Source of the DNA: a bacterium
GTDB lineage: Bacteria; Patescibacteriota; Minisyncoccia; UBA6257; 2-01-FULL-56-20
NCBI GenBank assembly: GCA_021827685.1
Contig: JAKAUM010000007.1
Location: 9,842-73,841 of the forward strand
DNA: 64,000 nucleotides
Direction: 5' to 3'
The notes under the pieces were generated by a model that made no database searches, was not told where the DNA came from, and saw only the letters and a list, made by a program, of their open reading frames with translations. Each line of letters begins with the position of its first letter. Position 1 is the first letter of the stretch. Below are positions 21,526 through 64,000 of the stretch, piece by piece. The translations under genes were made by a program, and so were the position numbers.

Positions 21526-21532
21526 TAAGAAT

Positions 21533-22165: not shown

Positions 22166-22168
22166 CCT

Positions 22169-22666: not shown

Positions 22667-22671
22667 AATGT

Positions 22672-23503: not shown

Positions 23504-23893
23504 ATGACCGCAACAAAAATCGTCATAACTCATGCAAGCGCGCTGCCTTGGAAAGGCGAATTTTATGCGGCGGTTCGAGCATCTCGGCTGTACGAAAATA
23601 ATGATGTTTTCTTGCCGCAAGAGAAAAACAAACCGGAGCAGATTACCAAAGAGCGAATCGAACATTGCGACCTCATGATTGCTGAAGTTTCTTGCCCCTC
23701 AACGGGGCAAGAAATAGAACTTGGATGGGCGGATGCCTATCATCGCCCGATTATTTGCGTTCATCAGGAAAAAAACGCTGTTTCGAACTCGCTACGATTT
23801 ACCACGAGCGAATTCATCAGCTATAAGGATTCCGAAAACCTGATTGCACAGCTTGAGCGGCTGATCCTAGAGAAATATCAACCCGCGGCATAG
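23504..23893 (+). CDS. Nucleoside 2-deoxyribosyltransferase-like (NDT/YtoQ fold) protein
   Basis: CDLMIAEVSCPSTGQEIELGWADAYHRPII, the NDT-like ExG + conserved acidic pattern. Confidence 0.55.
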   Translation: MTATKIVITHASALPWKGEFYAAVRASRLYENNDVFLPQEKNKPEQITKERIEHCDLMIAEVSCPSTGQEIELGWADAYHRPIICVHQEKNAVSNSLRFTTSEFISYKDSENLIAQLERLILEKYQPAA

Positions 23894-23966
23894 TTTCCGC
23901 ATAATGTTCTTCTTATAGAAGCGCTTGCGGCCGAACCCGCGCGCGCAAACATGGTAGAATGAGATT

Positions 23967-51252: not shown

Positions 51253-52002
51253 TCATGCCTGGACCTTTTCGAAAAAATAACCGCCCAGCCATATGCAGAT
51301 GAACGCGAGGACGACGAGGAAGATCGTGTCGCCCGGCACCGTAAGGTCGTGATGGCCGATGTCGGCGAAAAGGACGCGCAGGGCGTCCACCCCGTAGGTC
51401 AAAGGATCGACGCGCGCGATAAGTTCGAGCCAGCTCGGCATGTTCTCAAGGGGGAAGAACGCTCCCGAGATGAAGAGGAGGGGGAGGACGAGGAAATTGA
51501 CGACGAGCTGGAACGCCTGCATGTCCTCGATGAGCGAGCCGAGGATAGTGCCGAAGGCGGCGAAGACAAGGGCGATGAGGAACACGATAAAGAATGCCGG
51601 AAGCACCGCGCCCCACGAAACCGGCCGAAAGCCGAAGAGGTATGCGACGATGAACGTGATGGCTCCTTGTACGGTGGAAGCGGTTGCGGCGCCGATCGTC
51701 CGCCCGAACATGACGTCGGTGCGCGACATCGGCGCAACGAGCGTTTCCTTGAGAAATCCGAACTGGCGGTCCCAGATGACCTCGAGGCCCGAGAAGGTAG
51801 CCGTGAAAATGATGCTCATGCCGATAAGGCCGGGCGCAAGGTAATCGATGTAATTTATGCCGCCCGCCGCAAAGGAGCTCCCGAGGCCGTAGCCGAACAT
51901 GACAAGAAAAACGGTGGGCTGTACAACGAACGCAACCATCCGTATCGGCGAGCGGATATATTTTTTAACCTGCCTCAGCCAAAGGTAATATATTTTTTTC
52001 AT
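51253..52002 (-). CDS. ABC-2 type transporter permease
   Basis: 6 TM helices; ABC-2 family pattern. Confidence 0.8.
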   Translation of the reverse strand: MKKIYYLWLRQVKKYIRSPIRMVAFVVQPTVFLVMFGYGLGSSFAAGGINYIDYLAPGLIGMSIIFTATFSGLEVIWDRQFGFLKETLVAPMSRTDVMFGRTIGAATASTVQGAITFIVAYLFGFRPVSWGAVLPAFFIVFLIALVFAAFGTILGSLIEDMQAFQLVVNFLVLPLLFISGAFFPLENMPSWLELIARVDPLTYGVDALRVLFADIGHHDLTVPGDTIFLVVLAFICIWLGGYFFEKVQA

Positions 52003-52003
52003 A

Positions 52004-52792
52004 TTAGCGGCGTCCGAACATGCGGCCCATCCCCCTCATTTGGGCAGACTGGGCCGCTTCCTCTTCGCGGATCGACTTCCCGGTGAGCGCGAGGAATGCG
52101 TCTTCCAGGCGTTCCTCGTGCGCCTGTTTTTTAAGCTCGGCGGGCGACCCGATTGCGATGATCCTGCCGTGATCCATGATGGCAACGCGCTGCGCCATGA
52201 GGTCGGCTTCCTCGATGTAATGCGTCGTGAGGAAGACGGTCATCCCCTCCGATTTATTGAGCTGTCTTATGCGGTCCCAAAGGAGGTTTCTCGTCTGGGG
52301 GTCGAGGCCCGAGGTCGGCTCGTCGAGAAAAAGGATCTTCGGGTCGTGCAGGAGCCCGCGCGCGATCTCAAGGCGGCGCTTCATGCCGCCCGAGAACTCC
52401 TTTACCTGGCTGTCCTTCCTGTCCCAGAGGTCCACTACCTTGAGCAGTTCTTCGCCGCGCACGCGGCGCTCGTCGTCAGGCACGTCGTAAAGCACGCCGT
52501 GCAAATCCATGTTCTCCCAAGCCGTGAGATCGTCGTCGACGGACGAATCCTGGAAAACGATGCCGAACGTCCGCCGCGCGCGCTCGGGCTCCGCGACCGG
52601 ATCGATGCCGTTCAATCGGATCTTCCCCGACGTCGGGCGGAGGAGCGTTGTGAGCATTTTCACGGTCGTCGTCTTCCCCGCCCCGTTCGGTCCGAGAAAC
52701 GCAAAAATTTCACCTTGGCCGATATTAAACGTTACGCCGTTCACCGCCGTGAGGTCGCCGAACTTTTTGGTTAAATTTTCCACGTCGATCAT
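52004..52792 (-). CDS. ABC transporter ATP-binding protein
   Basis: GPNGAGKTT Walker A, LSGGMKRR signature, LFLDEPTSGLD Walker B. Confidence 0.9.
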   Translation of the reverse strand: MIDVENLTKKFGDLTAVNGVTFNIGQGEIFAFLGPNGAGKTTTVKMLTTLLRPTSGKIRLNGIDPVAEPERARRTFGIVFQDSSVDDDLTAWENMDLHGVLYDVPDDERRVRGEELLKVVDLWDRKDSQVKEFSGGMKRRLEIARGLLHDPKILFLDEPTSGLDPQTRNLLWDRIRQLNKSEGMTVFLTTHYIEEADLMAQRVAIMDHGRIIAIGSPAELKKQAHEERLEDAFLALTGKSIREEEAAQSAQMRGMGRMFGRR

Positions 52793-52892
52793 GGCGATGA
52801 TGGTTCAGTGTTTAAACAATATCGCGCGCCCATAGGAAGGGTCAAGGGCTTTGATTCCTTCCGGGCCTGCCCGCACGGCGGAAATATCGGCG

Positions 52893-54773
52893 TCAGCGGA
52901 GCGCGGAATCCGGTTCGCGGCGGACGGAAAACAGCCGGGCGGTATTCGCAAGCACGAGCACCGAGCTCGCTTCGTGGAATAAGGCGGTTTGGAGTAGTGT
53001 GATCATGCCGAGCGCGGCAAAAAGCCCCGCGGCCGCATGGATCGCCGTCGCCCCGACAAGGTCTTCCTTGATGACGGCGATGACCCGCTTCGAATGTCCG
53101 ATAATCCTCGGTATTTTCATAAGATTCTCCTCCACGAGCACGACGCTCGCCGCGTTCGTCGCGAGGTCGGTCCCCCGCACCCCCATCGCGATCCCCGCGG
53201 TCGCCGCGGAGAGCGCGGGCGCGTCATTGATGCCGTCGCCGACCATGATCGACCGCTCGCCTTTTTTCTCAAATTCCCGGATGCACGCGATCTTGTCCTC
53301 GGGAGAAAGGTTCGCCGCGATCGACGGCTCGGGGAGGCCGAGAAGGCCCGCGATGTGCCGTGCGACGGCGATATCGTCCCCTGTCAAAATGCGGAGGTCG
53401 TATCCCTCCTCCTTCAAGGCCCGGATCGCCTGCGCCGCTTCGGGCCGGAGAAAGTCGGCAACGAAGATCGCGCCGATAAGCGCTCCGTTCTGGGCGACAA
53501 AGACCGGCGTCTCTCCGCGGCCTTCGCGCTCCGCCGCGGCCGCGCGAAACTCGGGCGGGAGCGCCACGCCCTGTTCTTTGAGAAACTTTTCACTCCCCAT
53601 GGTAAAGCGGTCGCTTCCCCGCTCAGCCGTGAGCCCTCCTCCCTTCACGACGTGCACGCCCGCGAATTCTTCCGTGGCAATATTCCTCTTTGCCGCCTCC
53701 CGGACGATCGCCTTTGCGATCTCATGCTCCGATTTTTTCTCCATGCCGCCCGCGCGGGAGAGAAGCGCGTCTTCGCCGCCGCGGCCGCCCTTCCCGTCCG
53801 CAAGCATGATTTCGCGAACCGACGGCGTTCCCGCAGTGAGGGTTCCCGTCTTGTCGAAAACGGCGTGCCTGATCTTCGTGAGGTCCTCGATCGTTTCGGC
53901 GCCTTTTATGAGAATGCCCATTCTCGCGGCGGTGCTTACGCCGATGCTCACCGATACCGGCCCTATGATCGCGAACACGATCGGCACCATCGCGATCCAA
54001 AGGCCGAGCGCCCGGAAAAGATCGCCGGTAAAGAGATAAAGCGCAATGACGAGAACCGCAACCACGAGCGAAGTGTATTTCGCGTACTCGTCGATAAAAC
54101 GCGCAATCGGCGTCTTTTCGCGTCCCGCCTCTTCGGCAATCTTCCGGATTTGAGCGACCGTCGAGTTCTCGCCGACCCGCGCCGCGCGCATCTCGAAATA
54201 GTCTCCGGCGTTGATGGATCCCGCGGGGACTTCGCCGCCTTGCGCGACGGCGATCGGACGCGATTCGCCGGAAATCACCGATTCGTCGAGGAGGGCGGTT
54301 TCCGCAAGGAGGGTTCCGTCCGCCGGCGCGCGGCCGCCGGGCTCCACGACCACGGTGTCGCCGACCGCGATCTCGGCGATCTCGATCTCCTTCACCTCGC
54401 CCGAGGGCGACTTCACAAAACCCGTGTGCGGAAGGAAGACGGTAATCCTTTCAAGCGACTGGCGTACTTTATATAAGATGATCGCCTTGAATAAATCGCC
54501 GGCGATCATGATGAGGACGAAGACGGCGGCAACCGTAATCGCGTTCACGTACACGAGAACGTAAATCGTAAACGCCATCGACACGCCCACGTCGAACTGC
54601 GCATGCGCGGCGCGCTTCGCGGCATTCGAAAGCGTGGGCCACATGGCGCCGGTAAGAAGCAAAAATCCGATCCATTGGAGCGGGAGCGGGTGTCCGCGGC
54701 TGAAGAATACGCAGCCCAAAAGAACGGCGGGGAAAGCCGCTCTTGCGATGAAAACCATAAGGATGCGCTTCAT
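52893..54773 (-). CDS. P-type cation-transporting ATPase (P1B-like architecture, no CPx motif seen)
   Basis: DKTGTLT phosphorylation site, GDGINDAPAL hinge; 626 aa, no N-terminal metal-binding domain. Confidence 0.85.
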   Translation of the reverse strand: MKRILMVFIARAAFPAVLLGCVFFSRGHPLPLQWIGFLLLTGAMWPTLSNAAKRAAHAQFDVGVSMAFTIYVLVYVNAITVAAVFVLIMIAGDLFKAIILYKVRQSLERITVFLPHTGFVKSPSGEVKEIEIAEIAVGDTVVVEPGGRAPADGTLLAETALLDESVISGESRPIAVAQGGEVPAGSINAGDYFEMRAARVGENSTVAQIRKIAEEAGREKTPIARFIDEYAKYTSLVVAVLVIALYLFTGDLFRALGLWIAMVPIVFAIIGPVSVSIGVSTAARMGILIKGAETIEDLTKIRHAVFDKTGTLTAGTPSVREIMLADGKGGRGGEDALLSRAGGMEKKSEHEIAKAIVREAAKRNIATEEFAGVHVVKGGGLTAERGSDRFTMGSEKFLKEQGVALPPEFRAAAAEREGRGETPVFVAQNGALIGAIFVADFLRPEAAQAIRALKEEGYDLRILTGDDIAVARHIAGLLGLPEPSIAANLSPEDKIACIREFEKKGERSIMVGDGINDAPALSAATAGIAMGVRGTDLATNAASVVLVEENLMKIPRIIGHSKRVIAVIKEDLVGATAIHAAAGLFAALGMITLLQTALFHEASSVLVLANTARLFSVRREPDSALR

Positions 54774-54896
54774 GACGTTAGAATGACCGTTCTTGCACTT
54801 ATTCTACCCCACCGGCGGCATTTTCCTTATGCACATCGGACAAGACAGCCGCCGGAGAAAATCCGGAGCCTGCCGCCCGCGGGGTCATTGACAAAG

Positions 54897-56351
54897 CTAA
54901 AGCGCTTCGAGGTCGAGAACGTGATCGATCTTTATCTGTTTTACGAATTCCGGCACGTGACTCACGAGGATCATGGCTCCTTCGTAGCGGTCGAGTGCTT
55001 TTGCAATCACGGGAATATGGCGGAAATTGATGTGATTCGTCGGCTCGTCGAGGATGAGGATCCCGGGGTGGAGAAGGGTGAGCCGCGCAAATGCCACGAG
55101 TCCTTTCTGGCCTTCGGAGAGTAAGCCGATCTTTGTTCTTAATATTTCCGCATTGAGAAGAAATCCGGCGGCGGCGGAGCGGAGCTCTTGTTCCGTACCA
55201 TTGTCTTTAATCGCAGCGGCGAGCGTGCTATACACCGTCGCCGTAAAATCGAGCGTCGAAAAATCTTGGCGGTAGTAGCCGATGCGCACGCCCGGCGCGA
55301 TACACTCCCCCTTTGCATGGCCGCTCGCCAGCTTTTCGAGAAGCGTGGTCTTGCCTATTCCATTCGGGCCGGCGAGAAGAAGCCGTTCTTTTTTCTTGAG
55401 CGTTACGTCAACTTTTTTCACCGCGGGCCTATGATTTTTTATTATCGAAACCGAGGCGAGATCGAGGATCTTCCCGCTTAAATTTTCTTGGCAGGGAATC
55501 ACAAAACTCCGGATGGTCTTGTCTTCGTGCCGCATTTCCACGATATCCTCCTCAAGCTTCTCGATTTTTTCTCTCATCTTCCGCGCAACGTCCCGCATGT
55601 GGCCGCCCTTTTGGGCGAAGAAACCAGCTTGATCCTTCCGATGCGCGATGTCCTTTTCCAGCCGGACGTTCTTCATCCGCTCGCGTTCGAGGCGTATCGA
55701 GATTTCTTTCGTCACGTCCGAATAGTCGCCGGCGTATTGCTCCACCTTATGCGTAAACACGTCGAGGTACAGGACGCCGTGGGTAAAGGAGTTCAAAAAA
55801 TCCGCGTCGTGCGAAATAACGATGCAGGTCTTCGGGTACGCGGCGAGGAATTCCGTAAGGTGGGCGATGCCTTGCTTATCGAGATTGTTCGTCGGCTCGT
55901 CGAGCAATAAAATATCCGGATCTTGGATGAGCGCTTGAGCCAAAAGAATGCGCGCCTGCTGGCCGCCGGAAAGGGACTTCAAGGTTCTTTCGATGGGAAT
56001 TTTGAGATGAACCACTTCCAGGATCTTTTCAATTTTAGGTTCGATGTCATACTGCTTTTTCCTGAAGGCGCTTTCAAAAAATTCTTTCACCGTAAGCCCC
56101 ATAAGGTCTGCGGGGATGACCTGGCGCGCAGTCGCAATCGTCGCATCTTCCGTCACGGTGATACTGCCCGACTCCGGCACGAGCGTTCCCGTAATCATCT
56201 GGAAGATGGTGGTTTTCCCGGCGCCGTTCTGGCCCATGAGGGCGATTTTGGATCCTTCGCGCACGGAAAAGTCCGCTTCCCGGAGAATCGGCCTGCGGTC
56301 GTACTCGAAAGAAACTTTATCGAATCTCAAAATGACGTCGTTGCCGGGCAT
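54897..56351 (-). CDS. ABC-F family ATPase (two tandem ABC domains, no TMD)
   Basis: Two Walker A/B + signature sets with an interdomain linker. Confidence 0.85.
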   Translation of the reverse strand: MPGNDVILRFDKVSFEYDRRPILREADFSVREGSKIALMGQNGAGKTTIFQMITGTLVPESGSITVTEDATIATARQVIPADLMGLTVKEFFESAFRKKQYDIEPKIEKILEVVHLKIPIERTLKSLSGGQQARILLAQALIQDPDILLLDEPTNNLDKQGIAHLTEFLAAYPKTCIVISHDADFLNSFTHGVLYLDVFTHKVEQYAGDYSDVTKEISIRLERERMKNVRLEKDIAHRKDQAGFFAQKGGHMRDVARKMREKIEKLEEDIVEMRHEDKTIRSFVIPCQENLSGKILDLASVSIIKNHRPAVKKVDVTLKKKERLLLAGPNGIGKTTLLEKLASGHAKGECIAPGVRIGYYRQDFSTLDFTATVYSTLAAAIKDNGTEQELRSAAAGFLLNAEILRTKIGLLSEGQKGLVAFARLTLLHPGILILDEPTNHINFRHIPVIAKALDRYEGAMILVSHVPEFVKQIKIDHVLDLEAL

Positions 56352-56352
56352 A

Positions 56353-57315
56353 TTATTTCGAGGACTTTATTTTATTAAGAAGTGCTTCCATATTTTTCAT
56401 GCTCAGGGCGTCTTTCACCGATACTGTCGCCGCATTCGGGTTCAGTTTTTTTAATACCGCCAATTTTGCCTTGCGCGTCGCTTCATCCGCGAGATCGCTT
56501 TTGGAGAGAAATAGGTACTCCGGCTTCTTCAGCAGTTCTTTGCCGTGCGCGCCCAATTCTTTGCGGACCAATTTATAGTCCCCTTTCGGGTCGCCGGATT
56601 CGGCGGAAACAAAATGGAAGAGGATCCTGGTGCGCTCGATGTGCCGCAGAAATTTTGTCCCCAATCCTTTTCCGGACGATGAGCCCTCGATAAGACCGGG
56701 AATATCGGCGATGGTCAGTTCGTAGTATGCGCCGAGGTTCGGCTCGAGCGTGGTGAAAGGATAATCCGCAACCTTGCTCCGGGCGTTCGTGAGCGCGTTC
56801 AACATGCTGGATTTCCCGGCGTTCGGCAGGCCTACGAATCCAATGTCGGCAATAAGCCTAAGCTCCAAATGCAGTTCGAACGTTTCGCCCGGCCGTCCGC
56901 CCTGGGATTGAAGCGGAGAGGTGTTGCGCGAAGAACGGAAGTGAAAGTTGCCCCGGCCGCCGATGCCGCCGCGCGCAAGGAGTATGCGCTCGCCGATCTT
57001 TTCCACGCTTGTTTCGGTCCCGTTCGTGAGATTGTGCACTTCGGTTCCTACCGGGAGCTTGAGCACAAGGTCGTCGCCCCTGCGTCCGTCGCGCAGCTGG
57101 CCCTGACCGACGCCGCCGTCCTTTGCTCCAAATTCTTTTTTATACCGGAATTGTTTCAGCGCGCTGACATCCGAGACGCCCACGGCAAATACGTCGCCAC
57201 CCTTTCCGCCGGACGCGCCCGTGGGCCCGAGGGCTTTGAGGTTGCTGTTAAATGCCACCGCGCCCTTGCCGCCGTTTCCGGCAGAAATTTTGATATGTAC
57301 ATCATCTATGAGCAT
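56353..57315 (-). CDS. obg: GTPase Obg (no C-terminal OCT domain)
   Basis: Gly-rich Obg fold, then G1 GLPNAGKSS, G3 DIPG, G4 SKSD. Confidence 0.9.
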   Translation of the reverse strand: MLIDDVHIKISAGNGGKGAVAFNSNLKALGPTGASGGKGGDVFAVGVSDVSALKQFRYKKEFGAKDGGVGQGQLRDGRRGDDLVLKLPVGTEVHNLTNGTETSVEKIGERILLARGGIGGRGNFHFRSSRNTSPLQSQGGRPGETFELHLELRLIADIGFVGLPNAGKSSMLNALTNARSKVADYPFTTLEPNLGAYYELTIADIPGLIEGSSSGKGLGTKFLRHIERTRILFHFVSAESGDPKGDYKLVRKELGAHGKELLKKPEYLFLSKSDLADEATRKAKLAVLKKLNPNAATVSVKDALSMKNMEALLNKIKSSK

Positions 57316-57379
57316 CCGGTTAGAATGGCATTCTAAACTATTATCACTATTATTGCCATCGGTCCTGCGCTATGATCGA

Positions 57380-57859
57380 ATGATGGAAGAAATGGAAAAA
57401 ATCGAACCGTTCCATGTCACGCAGGAAGGCTTGGAACGCTTGCGCGAGCGGCTTGCATACCTCAAGCGTGTTTTGCCCGAACGCGCCGAGGAAACGAGGA
57501 GGGCGGCCGCGTACGGCGACCGTTCGGAAAACGACGAATACAAAACGGCGAAAGGAGCTTTACAGCATACCAAGTGGCGGATTCTGGAAATCGAAGACCA
57601 AATTAAACGCGCGGTCATAATTACCTCCGGCGCTTCCGCCTCGGGCATGGTGCAGATCGGTTCACGGGTGACGCTCGGCGAGGGCGCTGCGAAAAAGACG
57701 TTTCAGATCGTCGGCCCGCACGAAACCGATCCCGCGCGGGGCCGCATTTCTTACCGATCGCCGCTCGGCGCGGCGCTCCTCGATCGACGGAGGGGGCATG
57801 TCATCGAGGTGGAGTCGATAAACGGAACCAAAAAATACCGGATCATAGAAATACAATAG
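57380..57859 (+). CDS. greA: Transcription elongation factor GreA
   Basis: N-terminal coiled coil with acidic tip (DRSENDEY); C-terminal FKBP-like domain. Confidence 0.85.
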   Translation: MMEEMEKIEPFHVTQEGLERLRERLAYLKRVLPERAEETRRAAAYGDRSENDEYKTAKGALQHTKWRILEIEDQIKRAVIITSGASASGMVQIGSRVTLGEGAAKKTFQIVGPHETDPARGRISYRSPLGAALLDRRRGHVIEVESINGTKKYRIIEIQ

Positions 57860-58023
57860 CTGCCTGATTGCTCCCCGATTTGGACGAGTTTCGAACCAGA
57901 GATTGGGAACAGATTGTACGTGGTTTAGCTTATCTCGATGTGCCGCGGCTGCGGCTTGCAGTGGCGGCATAAGGGGGGGTATATTGGCGACAAAGGTCGA
58001 TTACAAGGCCTATTACATACATC

Positions 58024-58629
58024 ATGAAAAAAATACTACTGGGTGGAGCGGTGGCTGCTGGAAGCCTCCTTGCGTTTTCGTTGGTCGCTCTTGCTGCGCC
58101 ATCGGTCCACACGAATTTCGGCAAGACGCTCAATGCCAGCACCTGCAACACGAGTGGTGCCCCGATCGTAAATGTCTCGCTCAAGGTGATCAACGATTCC
58201 GATTCCGGTTTCGGTGGCAACGCATGGGCAAACGACGATTATGTAAAGACGATCCAGGTGTGGCCGCAAGCAGATGGAACGAACTGCGCTATCGTGAAAT
58301 ACGAAGGGCAGTTCGTTACCTATGATGGATTGAGTCCGAGCGGCAACTCGACGGTAGCGGCTGGAGTTAGGGGAGCGTTTGAGGGCGGCTATCAGGCCAC
58401 CTTCGATGGAACACTTACTCCCACGCTGCCGACCCACGGAAACCTTGGCACGTATGATTATGCGTGCGATGGAACGTTCACATGCAACACGTTCGATTGG
58501 GTGAGCGCCTACTTTACTGGCAATACATTCTTCAACCAGCCGTATTGGGCGTGGGACTACCATGCCGGTCACAATGGGAGCTGGGTGAACGCAAGCACTG
58601 GTAGTTCTGGCGACATCACCGGGAGCTAA
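58024..58629 (+). CDS. Secreted hypothetical protein with signal peptide
   Basis: MKKILLGGAVAAGSLLAFSLVALAA signal; Gly/Asn/Thr-rich, 6 Cys. Confidence 0.5.
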   Translation: MKKILLGGAVAAGSLLAFSLVALAAPSVHTNFGKTLNASTCNTSGAPIVNVSLKVINDSDSGFGGNAWANDDYVKTIQVWPQADGTNCAIVKYEGQFVTYDGLSPSGNSTVAAGVRGAFEGGYQATFDGTLTPTLPTHGNLGTYDYACDGTFTCNTFDWVSAYFTGNTFFNQPYWAWDYHAGHNGSWVNASTGSSGDITGS

Positions 58630-58655
58630 ACGAGTGAGTGCGGAACGATAAGCGT

Positions 58656-58682
58656 AAAAACAGCCCAAGTGGGCTGTTTTTA
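58656..58682 (+). terminator. Bidirectional rho-independent terminator (A5-CAGCCCA-AGT-GGGCTG-T5)
   Basis: Perfect stem flanked by an A-run and a T-run, 27 nt after the secreted-protein stop. Confidence 0.7.
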
Positions 58683-58787
58683 CTGGACAACCCTGCGTGA
58701 GGACTCGGTCTGGGGCGTACGATTCAGCCCGTAAAAGCTGGGCAAAACCAGTTCGTTGATTTTTCATGGGGAATCCGTATTATATAA

Positions 58788-59027
58788 GTGATGGACAAGA
58801 CCTCCTCAAAAAGCGGCGCGATGAGCAAAATCGCGCCAAAAGAAGTTGTAGACAAGAACGCTCCGGCCCTGAAGGCCTACGATGCGTATAAGAGAGCGGC
58901 CGACATCATAGAACAAGCCGACATTGCCTCCGGCAAGCGCGTCGTTTTCAAATCGAGCACTGGCTCTGCGATCAACTTCCAGATAGACCTGCATGGCACT
59001 TACTCAACCACAGCGCAAGAGATTTAG
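58788..59027 (+). CDS. Hypothetical 79-aa protein
   Basis: ORF with moderate GC; first gene of the element; overlaps the next gene start. Confidence 0.3.
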   Translation: MMDKTSSKSGAMSKIAPKEVVDKNAPALKAYDAYKRAADIIEQADIASGKRVVFKSSTGSAINFQIDLHGTYSTTAQEI

Positions 59028-60015
59028 CGCGACACAGGATTGGCAGAACTTCCTCCAAGCAAAACAGGGAGTGGTTAACGGCTCGGAGCTATTTGAGTTA
59101 CGCAAAGCATGTTACGCCGAGATAGAGGCGCTGCGAAAGCGGCCTCTTTTGGTTTACGCAACGAAGTTCTTGGAGGGCGTGCCCCCATTTGCACCTAATC
59201 AAATCGATCTTACCGATGTCGAAGGATTCACCGATCTGGTGAACTCGACAGCTGACGGTTCAGTAGACGTGCTTCTCCATAGCCCCGGTGGGCGTCCCGA
59301 TGCGACCGAGCGGATTGTTGACATACTCCGCGGAAAGTTCAAAGAGGTTCATTTTCTCGTTCCCCATTCGGCATATTCGGCCGCAACGATGCTCGCATTA
59401 TCCGGCAATAGCATTGTTCTCCATCCGAGCGCGACGCTTGGGCCGATTGATCCTCAGGTTGGTGTTCCGACGAAAGAAGGGCTGGTCAGGTTCGTCCCCG
59501 CGAAGTCCATCAGAAATGGATTCGAAAAGGCGAAAGCTGAAATAAAGAAAGAAGGGCCGGAGGCGCTGCCAGCTTACATCCCATTGATTGAACAATACTC
59601 GCTCGACCTCTTTGAGATGTGTGAGGATTCTGAAAAGCTCTCGAAGGAGCTGGTATCAACTTGGCTTCAGCGGTATATGTTTGAAGGCGATGGGAGCGCT
59701 GGGGAGAAAATCAAAAACGCCGTCGCGTATTTCTCGGAATACGATACGCACAAGCTGCACTCCCGGCCGCTCTCAGCGAACAAAATCTCCGGCCTCAATC
59801 TCAAAATCGAAGTCGCAAGCGGCATACTCAAAGACCTCCTGTGGGAGTCGTTTATTCTCCTCAATGGGTTCTTCAACGTAAGTTCGTTTGTGAAGCTATA
59901 CGAAAATACTCGTGGTGTGACATGGGGAAAACAGTTGCAGATTATGATGGGGCCTCAACCTCAAGTCCAGCCGCAGCCACAACCACGGCCGCGGCCACAG
60001 CCTCCGCAAAAATAG
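58993..60015 (+). CDS. ClpP/crotonase-fold serine protease, S49/SDH family, with Pro/Gln-rich C-terminal tail
   Basis: VDVLLHSPGG motif typical of ClpP/SppA-like (SDH) proteases; PQPQ repeat tail. Confidence 0.55.
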   Translation: MALTQPQRKRFSATQDWQNFLQAKQGVVNGSELFELRKACYAEIEALRKRPLLVYATKFLEGVPPFAPNQIDLTDVEGFTDLVNSTADGSVDVLLHSPGGRPDATERIVDILRGKFKEVHFLVPHSAYSAATMLALSGNSIVLHPSATLGPIDPQVGVPTKEGLVRFVPAKSIRNGFEKAKAEIKKEGPEALPAYIPLIEQYSLDLFEMCEDSEKLSKELVSTWLQRYMFEGDGSAGEKIKNAVAYFSEYDTHKLHSRPLSANKISGLNLKIEVASGILKDLLWESFILLNGFFNVSSFVKLYENTRGVTWGKQLQIMMGPQPQVQPQPQPRPRPQPPQK

Positions 60016-60096
60016 CAAGAGATAGCATGTCTTCGGCAGCGCTCAATCGGCGCTGCTTTTTGACGTGCGGGCAAATGTAAACTAAAGTAAAGCGTA

Positions 60097-61170
60097 ATGG
60101 AAGACATTGCGGCCACTTTGCGGGACGATTATGAGGCCTTCGTCAACCAGCCGGAACCGTTCGGCTTCTTTTCCGGCCTCTCGGATTATATGGGCTACGC
60201 GCTGGAGAACCCGACGCTGAAAGCGATTGTGGACGAAGCCATGAAGCCGAAGCAGGCATTGTTTGATGAGTATGACCGGCTTGAACAGCAAACGATGAGG
60301 GAGATGAAAGTGGCCGAAAAGAAAATCCGCAAGATCATTGCGGATAATAAAATCGACCCGGCTTCAATAACGATGGTTTTCTCGACGGGGCCGAATATGC
60401 GGCAGGAGCAAAACCTGCTTGAACGGCTCGAGGTGTTCGACAAAAGTCAGCCTGGCCACGGCAATTCAAAGTGGCATACGTTCGGGCAATACCTTTTCGA
60501 TATTGCCGTAAACCTCGCGCGACAGGGCTACGGGGAGCAGCTCAAGGAGTTTACCGTTCCAGCAAGTGAATGGGGACACCATCACGAAGATCCTTATCCC
60601 GAAGACAATACAAGCGGACTGGTTTTGGCTGGCAACAGCCTCGGCAACTTCGTGTTTTCAAAAACCGAGCCGCTTGTTCTCAAGCAGGATGCCCACATTG
60701 CCAAAGAGCGTGAGTATGGCGCAATGTGGAGCGTTTTCGATCAACTCGTGAAACTCCGCGAAACGGTTGTGGCTCGGAGCGGTGGAATAAGCAAATACGA
60801 TTTTCTCAACGATTACAACCGGCGGCACCCGGCAAGGAATAAAGCCGAAGCTAACGACCTCTGGGAGGTCGGCCTGGCATTTAACGACTTATCCGACATG
60901 ACGATGACCGGGGGGATCATAGAATGTGGATCGGTTCCACTCCCGGACGACAGTTACCGTTACCACCGTTCTTACGGGTCAACGACTTCAAGAGTCGTGC
61001 GGCACGCGCACATAGGCATCTTCTCAAAGAACTCGGGAAGCGGCAGACAAAAATGGCCCCGGCTGGTGGTTTTTCAGCAACCAGCGACGAGCTTTGTTTC
61101 AACGGCAAAAAGATCATTGTATCGCGGTCGAAAAACACAAGGCCTTATTTCCTGCTTAAAATTCTGTTGA
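60097..61170 (+). CDS. Hypothetical protein; C-terminal ~80 aa look like out-of-frame read-through (possible frameshift)
   Basis: First ~280 aa protein-like; the last segment is Arg-rich junk, while the overlapping +1 frame encodes a winged-helix domain. Confidence 0.4.
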   Translation: MEDIAATLRDDYEAFVNQPEPFGFFSGLSDYMGYALENPTLKAIVDEAMKPKQALFDEYDRLEQQTMREMKVAEKKIRKIIADNKIDPASITMVFSTGPNMRQEQNLLERLEVFDKSQPGHGNSKWHTFGQYLFDIAVNLARQGYGEQLKEFTVPASEWGHHHEDPYPEDNTSGLVLAGNSLGNFVFSKTEPLVLKQDAHIAKEREYGAMWSVFDQLVKLRETVVARSGGISKYDFLNDYNRRHPARNKAEANDLWEVGLAFNDLSDMTMTGGIIECGSVPLPDDSYRYHRSYGSTTSRVVRHAHIGIFSKNSGSGRQKWPRLVVFQQPATSFVSTAKRSLYRGRKTQGLISCLKFC

Positions 61171-61385
61171 GCAATCCACAGAAGACTTGGCATTACGACG
61201 AGGTCTGGTGGGAGTTATTCGAGACGCACTATCCCAAAAATCCGACCGAGGCAGACGCGAAGAAAATCTACAATGCCGCCTATGATCTGAACCAGCTCAT
61301 CGCGCAACAAACGACGATAAACGATTTCGTGGATGTGACGATGACTACGTTGAGGGTGAACGAGAAGTATCTTCCGCTCGGGTAG
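61053..61385 (+). CDS. OmpR/CadC-type winged-helix DNA-binding domain protein (either standalone or the frameshifted C-terminus of the upstream ORF)
   Basis: KIIVSRSKNTRPYFLLKILLSNPQKTWHYDEVWWELF resembles the trans_reg_C wHTH. Confidence 0.4.
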   Translation: MAPAGGFSATSDELCFNGKKIIVSRSKNTRPYFLLKILLSNPQKTWHYDEVWWELFETHYPKNPTEADAKKIYNAAYDLNQLIAQQTTINDFVDVTMTTLRVNEKYLPLG

Positions 61386-61449
61386 CAGAGATTCAGCAGA
61401 GTTCTGCTGACTGCGGTAGGCATATCCTGATGAAAAATCAGGATCTTTT

Positions 61450-61689
61450 ATGCCTGCCAAAAGAGTTAAAAAGAAAAAGGATATTCCGGTCAGAGGCCTA
61501 TTCGAGGAAACTCGCTCGGATGATGCTACCAAGACGTTACCCGCAAAGCCGACCGTAGACGAGATTTTTAGCGACCCTGCGGCCCGCCGTAATATCGTCG
61601 GTCTCTACGAACTGCTGTACGAAATCGACCGGCGCATTAATCCGCAGTTCTACGGCTTGCCTGAGAGAAAAGATGACGCGGTAAAATAA
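61450..61689 (+). CDS. Hypothetical 79-aa basic protein
   Basis: ORF immediately upstream of the Rep gene. Confidence 0.3.
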   Translation: MPAKRVKKKKDIPVRGLFEETRSDDATKTLPAKPTVDEIFSDPAARRNIVGLYELLYEIDRRINPQFYGLPERKDDAVK

Positions 61690-61694
61690 AACCA

Positions 61695-62846
61695 ATGATT
61701 GATACTGCGACGCTATCGGTACCCACAAGGAAAATCGTAACCGATCCGATCATCGATAGGATCGGTTCGAAGTGGCACCTCCAACGCCGGACGCCGGGCT
61801 ACGACATGTATATCAGAAATCCGTCCGCGGCGTTTACGAAGCAAAACTACTTCCCGTACGTGACGGCATTCAACCGCAAAGGATCGCATTCCTCGTGGAA
61901 AGAAGCCGAGTCAACTATCCACTTTCGTTTCTCCGCGCCGAAGCTCATTTTTCAAAATAACGTAGACGAGCTAACCGAAGACCAGTTCGAAGCGGTCGTA
62001 CGGGCGCTCACTGACCGGCTCCGCGAGATGAACATCCTCGTCCGGTCGCAAACATTGGCCGACGCGGAGGTGCGCACAGTGCATTACTCAAAGAACATTG
62101 AGCTGCACGACGGCTACACTGCTCGTTACGTCATCAATGAACTCGGGAAAATCGATATGAGCAAGCGCTTCGATTTCGGTAAGGCGCGATATGAGAATGA
62201 CGGTAGTGGGATCGTAGCACATACGAAGGCACACGAGTTTGTGGTGTACGACAAGATCGCGGACATGGGAAAAAGTCAAAAACGGGCTATCGACAAAGAC
62301 CAGACGTCTCGGCAGCCGAGCCTGTTCGCTGATTTTGAAAAAGCCGAGAAGCCGCACGAGATCATCCGCTTCGAGATACGACTGAACGAGAAGCGCAAGA
62401 TCGATGCGCTGTTTCAGGAACTCGGTTTCGCGCCGAACCCAACCTTCAAAGACGCATTCTCTGCCGCAAAGAGCAAGAAAGTGGTTCGGCATTACTGGGA
62501 CACGATGGTCACGGGACATGCAGCAGCGCTATTCGGCCACACGCTGACTATGAAGGAACTACTCCACCAGATCATGCTGGCCGAGAAGAACATGCGGCCC
62601 AAGGAAGCGATCTACCGCGCTGCCGCGATTTTCATGGCTCGCGAGGGCAACGGCCTGCGGGAGCTACGAAGTATTCTTCAGCGGCGCGGTCGTGACGACT
62701 TTTGGTATGACCTCACGGCCGACGTAAAGAAAACAACCACAAAGCTCGACAAGCTCCGGCCGCGCGACTGGTTTGACCAGATTATCAAGGGTTTCGAGGT
62801 CTTTGAGTCGCTCCGAGTTGTTCACTTGCTTGGTAAACAAAAGTAA
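61695..62846 (+). CDS. Rolling-circle replication initiation protein, Inoviridae gene-II-like (Phage_CRI family)
   Basis: N-terminus MIDTATLSVP resembles the gpII MIDxLxL start; SHSSWKEAESTIHFRFSAPKLIFQNNVDEL block. Confidence 0.55.
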   Translation: MIDTATLSVPTRKIVTDPIIDRIGSKWHLQRRTPGYDMYIRNPSAAFTKQNYFPYVTAFNRKGSHSSWKEAESTIHFRFSAPKLIFQNNVDELTEDQFEAVVRALTDRLREMNILVRSQTLADAEVRTVHYSKNIELHDGYTARYVINELGKIDMSKRFDFGKARYENDGSGIVAHTKAHEFVVYDKIADMGKSQKRAIDKDQTSRQPSLFADFEKAEKPHEIIRFEIRLNEKRKIDALFQELGFAPNPTFKDAFSAAKSKKVVRHYWDTMVTGHAAALFGHTLTMKELLHQIMLAEKNMRPKEAIYRAAAIFMAREGNGLRELRSILQRRGRDDFWYDLTADVKKTTTKLDKLRPRDWFDQIIKGFEVFESLRVVHLLGKQK

Positions 62847-62866
62847 AGTATCATAAAGCTAATACC

Positions 62867-63049
62867 ATGAAGCCAAAACACAAACCCTACTATACCGCTC
62901 GCGAGCTTGCCGACGCGCTCTCGGTGAACATCATGACCATCTATCGCTACATCAACAAGAAGCGGTTGAAGGCATACAAAATTGGCAAGGAGTTCAGGAT
63001 CGAAAAGGCCGAATTCGACCGGTTCATGCAAAAGGCAAAACTCAAATAA
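62867..63049 (+). CDS. Excisionase/MerR-type HTH DNA-binding protein
   Basis: YTARELADALSVNIMTIYRYINKKRLKAYKIG, HTH_17-like. Confidence 0.65.
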   Translation: MKPKHKPYYTARELADALSVNIMTIYRYINKKRLKAYKIGKEFRIEKAEFDRFMQKAKLK

Positions 63050-63051
63050 CC

Positions 63052-63570
63052 ATGGAAAAAACAATCAGTGGATTGAATAGCAGAAGCTGGTATAGGTTAC
63101 TGAAGGTGCTCTATGTCGGAGTATTCCTTGTCGTCGTCCTTTTCGGATTACTGTTGATCTTCGACTCTAATCAATTAGAAACCACAGTCGATAATGCAAG
63201 GACGACCATAGAATGCGATTATCCTGTGCAACATAACATTACGGCAGCCGATGGAGGCGTGTATTTTATGCCATCAGATTTCACGGACGGGGAATACAAC
63301 AATTTCAATAAAAACGCAGAAATACAAGATGCCTGCGGGATGACCGACTACGTTAATAACCTTATTTCCAGGGCTGGCAATCTCCAATTAGGAACAAACG
63401 GTTTCCCCTCCCATCTCTTCACTGTGGACCCAGTTTTTGATAGCGAAGGTGGCTGGTCTTATATACTCGGATACTCGCTACTCTTCATCGTCATAGTCGT
63501 CGCTATCTCTGAAGGGTTGAGGAGGGTTTTCTATTACGTGGTGCTTGGCAGCTTCAAGCCGCACAAATAA
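63052..63570 (+). CDS. Hypothetical membrane protein (2 TM)
   Basis: N-terminal and C-terminal TM helices flanking a Cys-containing extracytoplasmic domain. Confidence 0.4.
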   Translation: MEKTISGLNSRSWYRLLKVLYVGVFLVVVLFGLLLIFDSNQLETTVDNARTTIECDYPVQHNITAADGGVYFMPSDFTDGEYNNFNKNAEIQDACGMTDYVNNLISRAGNLQLGTNGFPSHLFTVDPVFDSEGGWSYILGYSLLFIVIVVAISEGLRRVFYYVVLGSFKPHK

Positions 63571-63572
63571 CT

Positions 63573-64000
63573 ATGAAGGCCATCGTCCTTGCAAGGGTGT
63601 CAGATAAAAAACAGGATTCCAACGAAGCGCAGGTAATGCGGATAGCCGACTTCATTAAATCGAAAGATCTTGAGGTTTGGAAAACGTACGAAATCGAGGA
63701 GTCATCATCAAGGGGCGATAGAAAGAAGTTCCATGAGGTCATAAAAGATATTGAGAAAGCCAAGGAGCCGATTGCTCTCGTCGTTGATACGATTGATCGT
63801 CTCCAGCGCAGCTTCAAGGAATCCGTGCTCTTGGATGATTTACGCAAGTCCGGGAAGCTCGTTATCTACTTTTACCGCGAGAACCTCACGATCCATAAGG
63901 ACTCCAATAGCGCCGACATTCTTCGGTGGGAAATGGGTGTCCTGCTCGCGCACAGCTACATACTCCAGTTGAGCGATAACGTGAAGCGTACGTTTGAACA
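63573..64000 (+). CDS. Serine recombinase (resolvase/integrase catalytic domain), 3' end truncated by window; not in the ORF track
   Basis: MKAIVLARVSDKKQD... nucleophile-Ser motif and resolvase N-domain pattern; ORF open to the window end. Confidence 0.8.
   Translation, partial: MKAIVLARVSDKKQDSNEAQVMRIADFIKSKDLEVWKTYEIEESSSRGDRKKFHEVIKDIEKAKEPIALVVDTIDRLQRSFKESVLLDDLRKSGKLVIYFYRENLTIHKDSNSADILRWEMGVLLAHSYILQLSDNVKRTFE

What the first reader, a model, noticed from the sequence alone, without database searches (positions are those of the whole stretch)
58700..64000. Mobile element with inovirus-like rolling-circle Rep and a serine recombinase, carrying an S49/SDH protease cargo
After a strong bidirectional terminator the GC falls to ~50% and nine same-strand genes follow. 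They are a 79-aa protein, a ClpP-fold S49/SDH protease, a 357-aa unknown, a wHTH protein, a 79-aa protein, a gpII-like Rep (MIDTATLSVP...), an Xis-like HTH, a 2-TM protein and a serine recombinase running off the window. No Zot-like ATPase or coat genes appear within the window, so this may be a non-canonical integrative replicative element rather than a classic filamentous prophage. Its left-hand cargo (protease + unknown + wHTH) is uncharacterised and could be a defence or exclusion module.
Basis: partly seen in the sequence, partly recalled or inferred. Interest (0 to 1): 0.7.

Follow-up and report, generated by a model that had tools for sequence, protein, structure and literature searches.

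The report
Small integrative rolling-circle element at tRNA-Asn
This is a 6.3-kb mobile DNA element inserted next to a tRNA-Asn gene in a probable Patescibacteria genome, one of a large undescribed family of small integrating plasmid-like elements that mostly carry restriction-modification genes and whose integrase gene is cut in two by its own insertion site.

Summary

Three points need correcting.
- The '357-aa unknown' and the 'wHTH protein' are one gene, split by a 1-nt frameshift in a G6 run.
- The protease and this gene belong to a recurring left-hand (backbone) module, not the cargo. The variable cargo slot lies between the HTH gene and the recombinase. It holds restriction-modification genes in most relatives and a 2-TM protein here.
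- The GC drop begins about 4 kb before the element.

The element spans about 58,694 to 65,041 (6.35 kb) and ends just past the window. Its right end abuts the 3' end of a tRNA-Asn(GUU) gene that carries a group I intron.

Among 76 non-redundant relatives, 29 have an informative recombinase 3' end. Nineteen of these run antisense into an intact tRNA: Asn 16, Trp 2, Gln 1. A circular 8.9-kb relative and fully delimited integrated relatives show that attP lies inside the recombinase ORF, so integration swaps its C-terminal tail.

No virion or conjugation genes were found. Mobility of this copy is unproven, and it shows signs of decay.

Verdict: a new variant of a known kind.

The parts
58654..58683 (.). 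Bidirectional terminator hairpin of the host 201-aa gene. It is the last host feature before the element.
   Evidence: Perfect 14-bp inverted repeat with a 2-nt loop, flanked by A and T runs (I18, 90).
58684..58734 (+). Inferred attL. It comprises the host arm, the crossover candidate CT at 58693-58694, and the element arm P'. P' mimics the tRNA-Asn 3' half (58691-58715, ccctgcgtgAGGACTCGgtCTGGgg). In the recombinase frame P' encodes an orphan tail, LREDSVWGVRFSP, with its stop at 58732-58734.
   Evidence: Read directly from the sequence and compared with attR. Integrated relatives carry an orphan recombinase tail at their left end right after (G)CTCC. Inferred for this copy; no empty site was seen.
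58756..58783 (+). Promoter-like site TTGATT-16-TATTAT in front of the left-hand operon.
   Evidence: Consensus scan. DNA homology with the related element L100 starts at 58751 and includes this site.
58791..59027 (+). 78/79-aa gene of unknown function. It overlaps the protease start.
   Evidence: The same overlapping pair is conserved in L100, with clear protein similarity. No family hits.
58993..60015 (+). ClpP-fold SDH-family serine protease, 340 aa.
   Evidence: PF01972 at 9.7e-14, above cutoff. phrog_11747 at 1.5e-49. NF047768 at 1e-17, below its cutoff. HSPGG and AYSAAT motifs are present.
60097..61385 (+). Gene X. It has a helical N-terminal region and a C-terminal OmpR/PhoB-type winged-helix DNA-binding domain. 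In this copy it is interrupted by a frameshift.
60910..60915 (+). G6 homopolymer where the reading frame of X breaks. G7 would restore a single ORF.
   Evidence: Sequence and frame switch in the alignments. Four further contigs cover this run; three are 100% identical to the window and L004's only mismatch is at 61560.
61424..61444 (.). Inverted repeat ATCCTGAT-gaaaa-ATCAGGAT followed by a T-rich stretch (CTTTTAT). Candidate double-strand origin or operator; it may also act as the terminator of X.
   Evidence: CCTG-N5-17-CAGG occurs 100-350 nt upstream of Rep in 21 of 67 loci, against about 1.6 expected. Stem changes are compensatory: GAGG/CCTC, GATG/CATC, GAGA/TCTC, GTAGG/CCTAC. Function is inferred.
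61450..61689 (+). Small conserved ORF (79 aa) immediately upstream of Rep.
   Evidence: tblastn relatives at the same position in many loci. No family hits.
61695..62846 (+). Rep, a 383-aa initiator of the Rep_trans / Phage_CRI (gpII) superfamily. Y185 in the motif YDK is invariant.
62867..63049 (+). Excisionase-type HTH protein (60 aa). Candidate recombination directionality factor or regulator.
   Evidence: PF12728 at 3.8e-13. TIGR01764 at 49 bits against a cutoff of 28.8. phrog_66. Found directly after Rep, or within about 1.2 kb of it, in nearly all loci that extend far enough.
63052..63570 (+). Cargo slot. Here it holds a 172-aa protein with two predicted transmembrane segments, function unknown.
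   Evidence: No hits in Pfam, PHROGs, PADLOC or NCBIfam. A relative sits in the same slot in L076/L077. The slot holds R-M genes in most relatives.
63573..64000 (+). Large serine recombinase, first 142 codons. The full ORF runs to window-equivalent 65084 (503 aa).
   Evidence: Resolvase + Recombinase + Zn_ribbon_recom, and phrog_95 at 4e-60. The last 15 codons are antisense to the tRNA-Asn 3' exon.

Best explanation
The stretch from about 58,694 to about 65,041 (window-equivalent coordinates) is an integrated copy of a small, plasmid-like integrative element.

Proposed life cycle:
- A large serine recombinase inserts a circular form at the extreme 3' end of tRNA-Asn(GUU). The crossover lies in or next to the ...GGCTCC... 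that ends the tRNA, and the tRNA stays intact.
- attP lies inside the recombinase ORF. The free form therefore encodes a recombinase with its own C-terminal tail. In the integrated form that tail is left as an orphan at attL, and the ORF instead ends in tRNA-antisense sequence.
- After excision the circle is copied by rolling-circle replication. Excision is presumably helped by the excisionase-type HTH protein. Replication is started by the Rep_trans/gpII-type Rep, possibly at the conserved CCTGA...TCAGG hairpin just upstream of the small-ORF/Rep operon.
- The left-hand genes (79-aa protein, SDH protease, OmpR-type winged-helix protein X) are a recurring accessory or regulatory module.
- The slot between the HTH gene and the recombinase holds the payload. 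This is usually a restriction-modification system; here it is a 2-TM protein.

Shown: gene identities, family architecture, the tRNA target, attP inside the ORF in relatives, and a circular relative.

Inferred: the exact crossover in this copy, the origin, the roles of HTH, X and protease, the route of cell-to-cell transfer, and whether this copy is still mobile.
For: Gene assignments:
-.

Rep:
- 398 homologues, mostly from metagenomes, some named Patescibacteria or Kaiserbacteria.
- 1,162 clusters at 50% identity reach E<=1e-3.
- Two homologues pass the Phage_CRI gathering score and five weakly hit Rep_trans.

Architecture:
- X - small ORF - Rep - HTH_17 - cargo - recombinase recurs in loci from JGI metagenomes, NCBI, ENA and Logan.

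Target:
- The recombinase ORF ends antisense inside an intact tRNA in 19 of 29 informative non-redundant loci: Asn 16, Trp 2, Gln 1.
- In the window's contig the tRNA is tRNA-Asn(GUU) with a 231-nt group I intron at position 35/36. Rfam scores it 72 bits, and the spliced exons fold as tRNA-Asn.

attP inside the ORF:
- L081 is a circular 8.9-kb contig with a 123-bp terminal repeat. It carries TCCTAACTGGCTCC 31 codons before the recombinase stop.
- L074 and L075 are identical up to TTGCTCC. One then continues into tRNA-Asn and the other into the element's own left end.
- L031 is fully delimited by GGCTCCGC at both ends, with an orphan tail at attL in frame. L022, L023, L026, L030 and L044 also carry orphan tails at their left ends.

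Right boundary here:
- Contigs from two independent datasets (k=141 and k=31) both imply a branch whose shared part starts at 65039, the tRNA 3' end.

Left boundary here:
- Homology with L100 starts at 58751 and includes the promoter and the 79-aa gene.
- 58691-58715 mimics the tRNA 3' half, in the recombinase frame.

Cargo:
- 71 ORFs from 39 loci (3 of the loci have an empty slot) are dominated by N6_N4_Mtase, ResIII, N6_Mtase, Eco57I, TaqI_C, D12 MTase and MmeI.

No virion genes:
-.
- No tblastn match in the phage or plasmid collections.
- One partial hit in IMG/VR.
Against: - No empty site, circular junction or second insertion of this particular element was seen. An attB pattern scan of JGI metagenomes found nothing, and the only related genome locus is not syntenic.
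- The window's attL core reads CTGCG where attR reads CTCCG.
- Its P'-encoded tail is only 13-14 aa and fits the family consensus poorly.
- Gene X is frameshifted. Together these suggest the copy may be decaying or immobile.
- An assembly-graph branch at 59019/59020, inside the element, is unexplained.
- The right-hand branch point (65039) is 1 nt off the best crossover candidate.
- The Rep itself has no direct Pfam hit. The catalytic role of Y185 and the origin hairpin are not tested, and the hairpin could be only a terminator.
- The host's phylum is inferred from homologue names and the intron type, not from a marker phylogeny.
Confidence: 0.7

Rival explanations
1. A satellite or defective prophage of a filamentous (inovirus- or plectrovirus-like) or other phage. 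It would keep only Rep, regulators and an integrase and borrow the virion from a helper, as RS1 does with CTXphi.
For: - Rep relatives pass the Pfam model built on phage gpII.
- The small size, integrase and excisionase-like gene fit satellites.
- The protease has weak similarity to head-maturation proteases: PHROGs 1e-5 to 1e-6, and NF045542 at 9e-6.
Against: - No Zot/pI ATPase, coat, capsid, terminase or packaging gene in the window element or in the complete circular relative L081.
- Only one partial hit among 2.9 million IMG/VR contigs, and none in 50,697 phage records.
- The payload is R-M systems, which is more typical of plasmids and genomic islands.
Confidence: 0.1
2. An integrative mobilizable element. 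The Rep_trans-type protein would act mainly as a MobT-like relaxase, and the element would hitch a ride on a conjugative system of the host or of the host's partner cell.
For: - MobT relaxases of Tn916/ICEBs1 and of streptococcal IMEs are Rep_trans proteins that both nick oriT and start rolling-circle replication.
- IMEs with serine recombinases and R-M or TA cargo are known (PMC5704250).
- The module order resembles such IMEs.
Against: - No coupling protein or other transfer gene was noticed next to the elements. This rests on the precomputed Pfam labels of the few loci that came with gene tables and on targeted scans of the window element and L081; one search covered only for element-derived proteins, so the remaining flanks were not screened.
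- From general knowledge, conjugative systems are not a known feature of Patescibacteria. This was not tested here.
- Serine-recombinase IMEs described so far insert inside protein genes, not at tRNA ends.
Confidence: 0.1
3. A fixed, decaying remnant. It was once mobile but is now just a genomic island inherited vertically in this population.
For: - Frameshift in X.
- Short, divergent P' tail and a mismatch in the attL core.
- Identical sequence in contigs from at least five samples with no junction variants recovered.
- Decayed tRNA-like remnants next to the recombinase occur in some relatives: L008, L069, L097.
Against: - All other ORFs are intact. Rep, HTH and recombinase are full length with their catalytic motifs.
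- A G-run frameshift is reversible, and the C-terminal domain of X has its own ATG at 60924.
- Assembly graphs branch exactly at the tRNA end in two datasets.
- In one sample the flank differs by 14 SNPs while 7.6 kb including the element is identical. This suggests recent spread or recombination.
Confidence: 0.25

Closest known systems
Integrative mobilizable elements of Firmicutes with Rep_trans/MobT proteins (IME_oriT family, Tn916/ICEBs1-type modules)
   Same: Small integrated elements with a site-specific recombinase, an excisionase-type HTH, a Rep_trans-superfamily protein able to start rolling-circle replication after excision, and R-M or similar payloads (PMC5704250). ICEBs1 also pairs a protease with a DNA-binding regulator.
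   Different: The host is Patescibacteria by inference. The Rep is very distant, with no direct Pfam hit. No evidence of conjugative helpers. The serine recombinase targets a tRNA 3' end instead of the interior of a protein gene. attP lies inside the recombinase ORF.
Rep_trans plasmid initiators (RepD/RepC of the pT181 family, Geobacillus RepSTK1; PDB 4cwc, 4cij) and phage gpII/RstA (Pfam Phage_CRI)
   Same: The predicted fold is best matched by these structures. Two homologues pass the Phage_CRI gathering score across nearly the whole N-terminal domain. An invariant Tyr sits in a Y-D-K motif on a beta-strand; from memory this resembles the R-x-Y-N/D-K active-site region of the pT181 family.
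   Different: Only 10-13% identity in the structural alignments. An extra helical C-terminal half of about 150 aa. The gene sits in an integrating element without phage morphogenesis genes or plasmid copy-control genes.
SSV1-type integrases of archaeal fuselloviruses
   Same: attP lies inside the integrase ORF and matches part of a tRNA gene. Integration therefore splits the integrase gene and leaves an orphan fragment at the other end of the element.
   Different: Those are tyrosine recombinases of archaeal viruses. Here a bacterial large serine recombinase loses only its last 13-38 codons. This comparison rests on general knowledge, not on a test done here.
pSAM2-type actinomycete integrative elements (AICEs)
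   Same: Small plasmids that integrate at tRNA 3' ends, carry int and xis, and replicate by rolling circle after excision.
   Different: AICEs use tyrosine integrases, a different Rep family and an FtsK-like transfer protein. None of these is present here. The comparison is from general knowledge.
Characterised large serine integrases (phiC31, Bxb1, A118, TP901-1, CcrAB)
   Same: Same three-domain architecture, with the N-terminal catalytic Ser in ARVS. The gene sits at the edge of the element.
   Different: The characterised examples target protein-coding genes or intergenic sites. Here the target is the last nucleotides of tRNA-Asn/Trp/Gln, and the crossover lies within the enzyme's own coding sequence. 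The large LSR survey PMC10083194 does not mention tRNA targets in its main text.

Membership tests
Rep_trans / Phage_CRI rolling-circle initiators | Profile match above the curated Pfam threshold | tested here: inconclusive
   The window protein has no hit. Homologues P0044 (47% identical) and P0016 (52% identical) score 28.6 and 23.4 bits against a cutoff of 21.7 for Phage_CRI, over profile positions 1-217 of 232. Rep_trans hits (best 18.7 bits) stay below its cutoff of 29.6.
Rep_trans / Phage_CRI rolling-circle initiators | Rep_trans fold | tested here: met
Rep_trans / Phage_CRI rolling-circle initiators | Catalytic tyrosine and a cognate nick site in an origin hairpin | not testable with these tools
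   Y185 (YDK) is invariant in 28 sequences. A conserved inverted repeat lies upstream of Rep. Nicking was not and cannot be tested here.
Large serine recombinase (integrase) | Resolvase catalytic domain + Recombinase domain + zinc ribbon, about 500 aa | tested here: met
   PF00239 at 3.5e-14, PF07508 at 1.1e-11, and PF13408 at 1.3e-4 (22.7 bits, just below its 25.3 cutoff). phrog_95 'integrase' at 4e-60. Catalytic Ser in the ARVS motif.
Large serine recombinase (integrase) | Defined attP/attB pair with a short crossover and element-specific junctions | tested here: inconclusive
   Met in relatives: L074/L075 share TTGCTCC, L031 shares GGCTCCGC, and L081 carries attP in a circular contig. For the window copy, attR is supported by graph branches and family conservation, attL is inferred, and no empty site was seen.
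Inovirus / filamentous prophage | Zot/pI-type morphogenesis ATPase and small coat proteins | tested here: not met
   Neither Pfam nor PHROGs finds such a protein among the element's genes, and Pfam finds none among the unassigned ORFs of the complete circular relative L081.
Integrative mobilizable element (IME) | Own integration/excision module | tested here: met
   Recombinase plus an excisionase-family HTH. Integrated and circular or tandem states occur in the family.
Integrative mobilizable element (IME) | oriT/relaxase used by a co-resident conjugative system | not tested
   The Rep_trans-type protein could act as a MobT-like relaxase. No search for conjugation genes in host genomes was made, and none was noticed in the flanks that came with Pfam labels.
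SSV1-type split-integrase integration | attP inside the integrase ORF, so that integration partitions the gene at a tRNA | tested here: met
   Family level: L081 has attP 31 codons before the stop. Orphan tails sit at attL in L022, L023, L026, L030, L031 and L044. In the window, the ORF's last 15 codons are tRNA antisense and a short in-frame tail remnant lies at 58693-58734. The enzyme class differs (serine, not tyrosine), so this is a working analogy, not family membership.
SDH-family ClpP-fold protease | Pfam PF01972 above threshold | tested here: met
   51.5 bits against a cutoff of 31.3, but only residues 71-166 are matched. The NCBIfam equivalog NF047768 scores 64.6 bits, far below its cutoff of 250. 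It is therefore a distant member.
Known anti-phage defence systems (PADLOC) | Any element protein matching a defence model | tested here: not met
   Only the generic HTH matches mad1, at 1.7e-10. The protease, X, the 79-aa proteins and the 2-TM protein have no hit.

The most novel reading that the evidence does not exclude
These elements would be a phylum-wide, so far undescribed class of integrative rolling-circle plasmids of Patescibacteria that shuttle restriction-modification and other defence genes. Their serine integrases have evolved to use the last nucleotides of tRNA-Asn (or Trp, Gln) as attB while carrying attP inside their own coding sequence. The enzyme's conserved C-terminal tail would then be present only in the free form, giving a built-in switch that senses integration state and sets the direction of recombination.
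Probability: 0.35. Interest if true: 0.75.

Novelty: new variant of a known kind. Interest (0 to 1): 0.55.

Why it matters
- Mobile elements of the ultra-small, mostly uncultured Patescibacteria are poorly known.
- This family is large: about 1,000 Rep clusters at 50% identity. It is almost invisible to standard annotation, because the Rep has no Pfam hit, IMG/VR holds only one partial hit, and the phage and plasmid collections hold none.
- It appears to be a major vehicle for restriction-modification genes in these organisms.
- The recombinases come with natural, readable attP/attB pairs on a universally conserved tRNA end. That is useful raw material for serine-integrase engineering.
- Splitting of the integrase ORF by integration parallels archaeal SSV1-type integrases. 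It suggests a testable regulatory role for the swapped C-terminal tail.
- For annotation, recombinase ORFs next to tRNAs in these genomes have chimeric 3' ends, and intron-bearing tRNA-Asn genes are missed by tRNA finders.

Tried and rejected
1. Contig ends as element ends. The 6,301-bp contig L002 has no terminal overlap and is not a circle. I first read the branch at 59019/20 as attL. I rejected that because the 79-aa gene and its promoter are conserved with the protease in L100.
2. An 8-bp direct repeat GCTCCGGC at 58860 and 65039 as att cores. Rejected: the left copy lies inside the conserved 79-aa gene and is not conserved in L100.
3. GATTTAGC repeats at 59021 and 65016 as att cores. Rejected: they do not fit the branch points, and the right copy is simply the conserved LELA codons of the recombinase.
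4. GC as the crossover dinucleotide. It fits q=65039 but is palindromic and drops the conserved Leu of the tail. CT is preferred, and the point remains unresolved.
5. Empty-site searches. An attB pattern scan of JGI metagenomes found nothing. The relative of the flanking 201-aa gene in GTDB genomes is not syntenic. Exact-protein look-ups of the flank returned only element-bearing or truncated contigs.
6. Direct family searches. Pfam, PHROGs, PADLOC and NCBIfam searches of Rep, X, the two 79-aa proteins and the 2-TM protein gave nothing. Profile searches of Rep and X against PDB sequences also gave nothing.
7. tblastn of Rep against the phage and plasmid collections found no match.
8. Cluster look-up for organism names returned none.
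9. X as a capsid or scaffold protein was rejected by the fold search.

Full report
**Where the window sits.** The window is the reversed end of NCBI MAG contig DAHVPJ010000001.1 (GCA_027318325.1, 342,864 bp). Locus L001 is identical to window 51695-64000 and continues 1,482 bases further, to the contig end at window-equivalent 65482. All coordinates above 64000 are such equivalents (L001 + 51,694).

**Checking the observation.**
- A perfect 14-bp hairpin flanked by A and T runs lies at 58654-58683, after a host 201-aa gene.
- A same-strand gene row follows it.
- GC is 0.45-0.53 in the row. However, it already falls from about 0.62 at roughly 54.7 kb, over ABC-F, Obg and GreA, so it does not mark the boundary.
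- The protease matches Pfam SDH_protease above threshold and phrog_11747 at 1.5e-49.
- The 60-aa protein is an excisionase-family HTH: PF12728, and TIGR01764 at 49 bits against a cutoff of 28.8.
- The last ORF is a 503-aa large serine recombinase with Resolvase, Recombinase and zinc-ribbon domains.
- Neither Pfam nor PHROGs reports a Zot-like ATPase or a coat protein.

**One gene, not two.** The 357-aa ORF and the overlapping 153-aa 'wHTH' ORF align colinearly, in two frames, with intact 422-aa (L010) and 457-aa (L100) homologues. The frame changes at the G6 run 60910-60915, and one more G would restore a single ORF of about 427 aa. Four further contigs cover this run; three are 100% identical to the window and L004's single mismatch is at 61560, so the run itself is the same in all. 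The frameshift is therefore real and not an assembly slip.

**The Rep.**
- The window protein has no direct Pfam, PHROG, NCBIfam or PDB-sequence hit.
- It has 398 word-indexed homologues, some named Patescibacteria or Kaiserbacteria.
- In an exhaustive profile search it reaches 1,162 clusters at 50% identity at E<=1e-3, and 512 at 1e-30.
- Of 28 aligned homologues, two pass the gathering score of Phage_CRI, the N-terminal domain of filamentous-phage gpII, over profile positions 1-217 of 232. Five hit Rep_trans weakly.
- Tyr185 in a Y-D-K motif on a strand is invariant. Its catalytic role is an inference.
- tblastn finds nothing in 50,697 phage or 72,556 plasmid records. A pattern scan finds one partial hit in IMG/VR.

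'gpII-like' is therefore supported at superfamily level only.

**Family architecture.** Contexts of homologues and 80 loci from JGI metagenomes share one order:

[SDH or ClpP protease, sometimes absent or replaced] - X - small ORF - Rep - HTH_17 - variable segment of 0-7 kb - large serine recombinase.

I scanned the variable segment in 39 loci (71 ORFs; three of the loci have an empty slot) against Pfam. It is dominated by restriction-modification genes: N6_N4_Mtase 15, ResIII 15, N6_Mtase 9, Eco57I 8, TaqI_C 6, D12 methylase 5, MmeI 5, type I S 3, plus single cases of HpaII, CfrBI, Vsr and others. In the window the slot holds only the 172-aa 2-TM protein, which recurs in L076/L077.

The payload therefore sits on the right of Rep, and the left-hand genes belong to a recurring module. 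None of the left-hand proteins matches a PADLOC defence model.

**The target.** Immediately after the recombinase, on the minus strand, Rfam finds a group I intron at 72 bits, E 6e-17. Removing 231 nt (65078-65308) joins two exons (65342-65309 and 65077-65040) into a sequence that ARAGORN folds as tRNA-Asn(GUU), with the intron at position 35/36. This intron class in Patescibacteria tRNA-Asn was published in 2026 (PMC13011429), so it is not new.

What matters here is that the recombinase ORF (stop at 65082-65084) runs antisense through the whole 3' exon. The same is seen across the family. Of 76 non-redundant Rep loci, 29 have an informative recombinase 3' end:

| Recombinase 3' end | Loci |
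|---|---|
| Inside tRNA-Asn(GTT), four of them intron-bearing | 16 |
| Inside tRNA-Trp | 2 |
| Inside tRNA-Gln (L099, the closest relative of the window's Rep) | 1 |
| Uninterrupted longer ORF | about 6 |
| Decayed tRNA-like remnant or other | about 4 |

Homology between recombinases stops at the same codon, just before ...GGCTCC, which is the complement of the tRNA's ...GGAGCC end.

**attP lies inside the recombinase ORF.** Three lines of evidence support this.
1. L081 is a contig with a 123-bp terminal direct repeat, that is, a circle of about 8.86 kb. It carries an X-like ORF in the X position (no detectable similarity to X), a small ORF, Rep, HTH_17, a C5 methylase, HpaII endonuclease and a 531-aa recombinase. 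Its recombinase ORF contains TCCTAACTGGCTCC 31 codons before the stop. Integrated relatives share this string and then continue into tRNA-Asn.
2. L074 and L075 come from different contigs and are identical up to ...GTCCTAACTTGCTCC. L075 then continues into tRNA-Asn. L074 continues into the element's own left end and a second, identical copy. That is a tandem or circular junction.
3. In integrated copies an orphan ORF fragment sits at the left end directly after (G)CTCC. It encodes the conserved tail L-R/P-x-L-D-x-F-R-T-x-x-W. L031 is delimited by GGCTCCGC at both ends, in frame.

Integration thus removes the last 13-38 codons of the recombinase gene and replaces them with tRNA-antisense codons. 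From general knowledge this parallels archaeal SSV1-type tyrosine integrases. According to the IME review PMC5704250, it is unlike described serine-recombinase elements, which insert inside protein-coding genes.

**Boundaries of the window's copy.**

Right end:
- Contig L002 (MEGAHIT, k=141) ends at 65179 and contig L004 (Logan, k=31, a different dataset) ends at 65068.
- With the overlaps seen on the left side, both imply a downstream unitig with two predecessors whose shared part begins at 65039, one base beyond the tRNA's discriminator.

Left end:
- DNA homology with L100, which has the same 78-aa + SDH + X module, begins at 58751. It covers the promoter-like site at 58756-58783 and the 79-aa gene. 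These therefore belong to the element.
- Between the host terminator and that point, 58691-58715 (ccctgcgtgAGGACTCGgtCTGGgg) mimics the tRNA 3' half.
- If this stretch is joined to the recombinase at the CT dinucleotide (58693-94 / 65040-41), it continues the ORF in frame as GLREDSVWGVRFSP-stop.

I place attL at about 58693-58696 and attR at about 65039-65041, giving an element of about 6.35 kb. These positions are inferred, because no empty site or circular junction of this copy was found.

**Signs of decay and open points.**
- The attL core reads CTGCG against CTCCG at attR.
- The P' tail is short and fits the consensus poorly.
- X is frameshifted, although its C-terminal domain has its own ATG at 60924.
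- An assembly branch at 59019/20, seen with k=141 and k=31 and possibly from the same data, lies inside the element and is unexplained.
- In one sample the flank carries 14 SNPs within 56383-57598, but the following 7.6 kb including the element is identical.

**Candidate origin.** An inverted repeat CCTG-N5-17-CAGG lies 100-350 nt upstream of Rep in 21 of 67 loci, against about 1.6 expected from the rest of the loci. It shows compensatory stem changes and a T-rich stretch after it. In the window it is ATCCTGATgaaaaATCAGGAT at 61424-61444. It may be the double-strand origin, an operator, or just the terminator of X. This was not tested.

**Mechanism.** The best-supported reading is an integrative, rolling-circle-replicating, plasmid-like element.
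- The recombinase integrates it at the tRNA end.
- The HTH_17 protein probably acts as excision factor or regulator.
- Rep amplifies the excised circle.
- X, with the protease and the 79-aa protein, probably regulates. The analogy with the ImmR/ImmA pair of ICEBs1 is only that, an analogy.
- The right-hand slot carries the payload.

How the DNA moves between cells is unknown. No virion or conjugation genes are present in the window element or in the circular relative.

Rivals are a phage satellite, a conjugatively mobilised IME, or an immobile remnant. None can be excluded, and each is given a lower weight above.

**Novelty.**
- The component families are known, and integrative RCR elements exist (IMEs, AICEs).
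- I found no paper describing this Patescibacteria family, though the searched library is incomplete.
- The combination of a serine integrase, a tRNA-end target and attP within the integrase ORF is unusual.
- The window's copy itself is an ordinary and possibly decaying member.

I rate it a new variant of a known kind.

Noticed in passing
just beyond the window: window-equivalent 65040-65342 (L001 13346-13648), minus strand: tRNA-Asn(GUU) interrupted by a 231-nt group I intron at anticodon position 35/36. ARAGORN misses it. The same intron-bearing tRNA-Asn lies next to the recombinase in L041/L043, L050 and L078. This intron class is already described (PMC13011429).
   Followed up: yes
window 16000-24000: A second low-GC stretch (0.44-0.54 against about 0.60), bracketed by tRNA-Arg 17881-17954, tRNA-Ala 17998-18069 and tRNA-Ser 19142-19230. 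It encodes a DUF2268 protease, an EamA transporter, an LD-carboxypeptidase, a NUDIX-pyrophosphatase fusion, an S51 peptidase and a histidine phosphatase. No mobility genes and no relative of the element.
   Followed up: partly
window 54700-58700: GC is already down to 0.50-0.57 over the housekeeping genes ABC-F, Obg and GreA, 4 kb before the element. In contig L015, from another sample, 14 SNPs cluster in 56383-57598 and none occur from 57599 onward. This may mark a recombination tract that includes the element.
   Followed up: no
window 59019/59020: Two assemblies (k=141 and k=31) end the chromosomal contig at exactly 59019, and the element contigs start one k-overlap earlier. This is a graph branch inside the element, in the overlap of the 79-aa gene and the protease start. 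It is unexplained.
   Followed up: partly
window 58757-58772 and 61425-61440: The motif TGATTTTTCAT in the left-hand promoter region recurs in inverted orientation inside the hairpin upstream of the small-ORF/Rep operon (I19). In L100 the promoter copy is itself palindromic (TTGATTTTTCATCAA). It may be a shared operator.
   Followed up: no
L074 5719-21083 (647-kb contig) versus L075: The same element is followed by tRNA-Asn in one contig and by a second identical copy of itself in the other. Upstream of it sits a different recombinase gene joined to the same left end. Elements therefore pile up in tandem at this site, or circular and integrated forms were co-assembled.
   Followed up: partly
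L008 15320-15370; L097 13960-14000; L069: In some relatives the recombinase is followed only by a decayed fragment of a tRNA 3' end, not an intact tRNA. L008 and L010 also have a tRNA-Arg(TCT) at their left flank.
   Followed up: no
L100 (Logan ERR11594402 contig, 15.9 kb): This relative has the same 78-aa + SDH + X module but an uninterrupted recombinase ORF, and about 4 kb of other genes (HD domain and others) after it. It is possibly a larger, non-integrated member.
   Followed up: no
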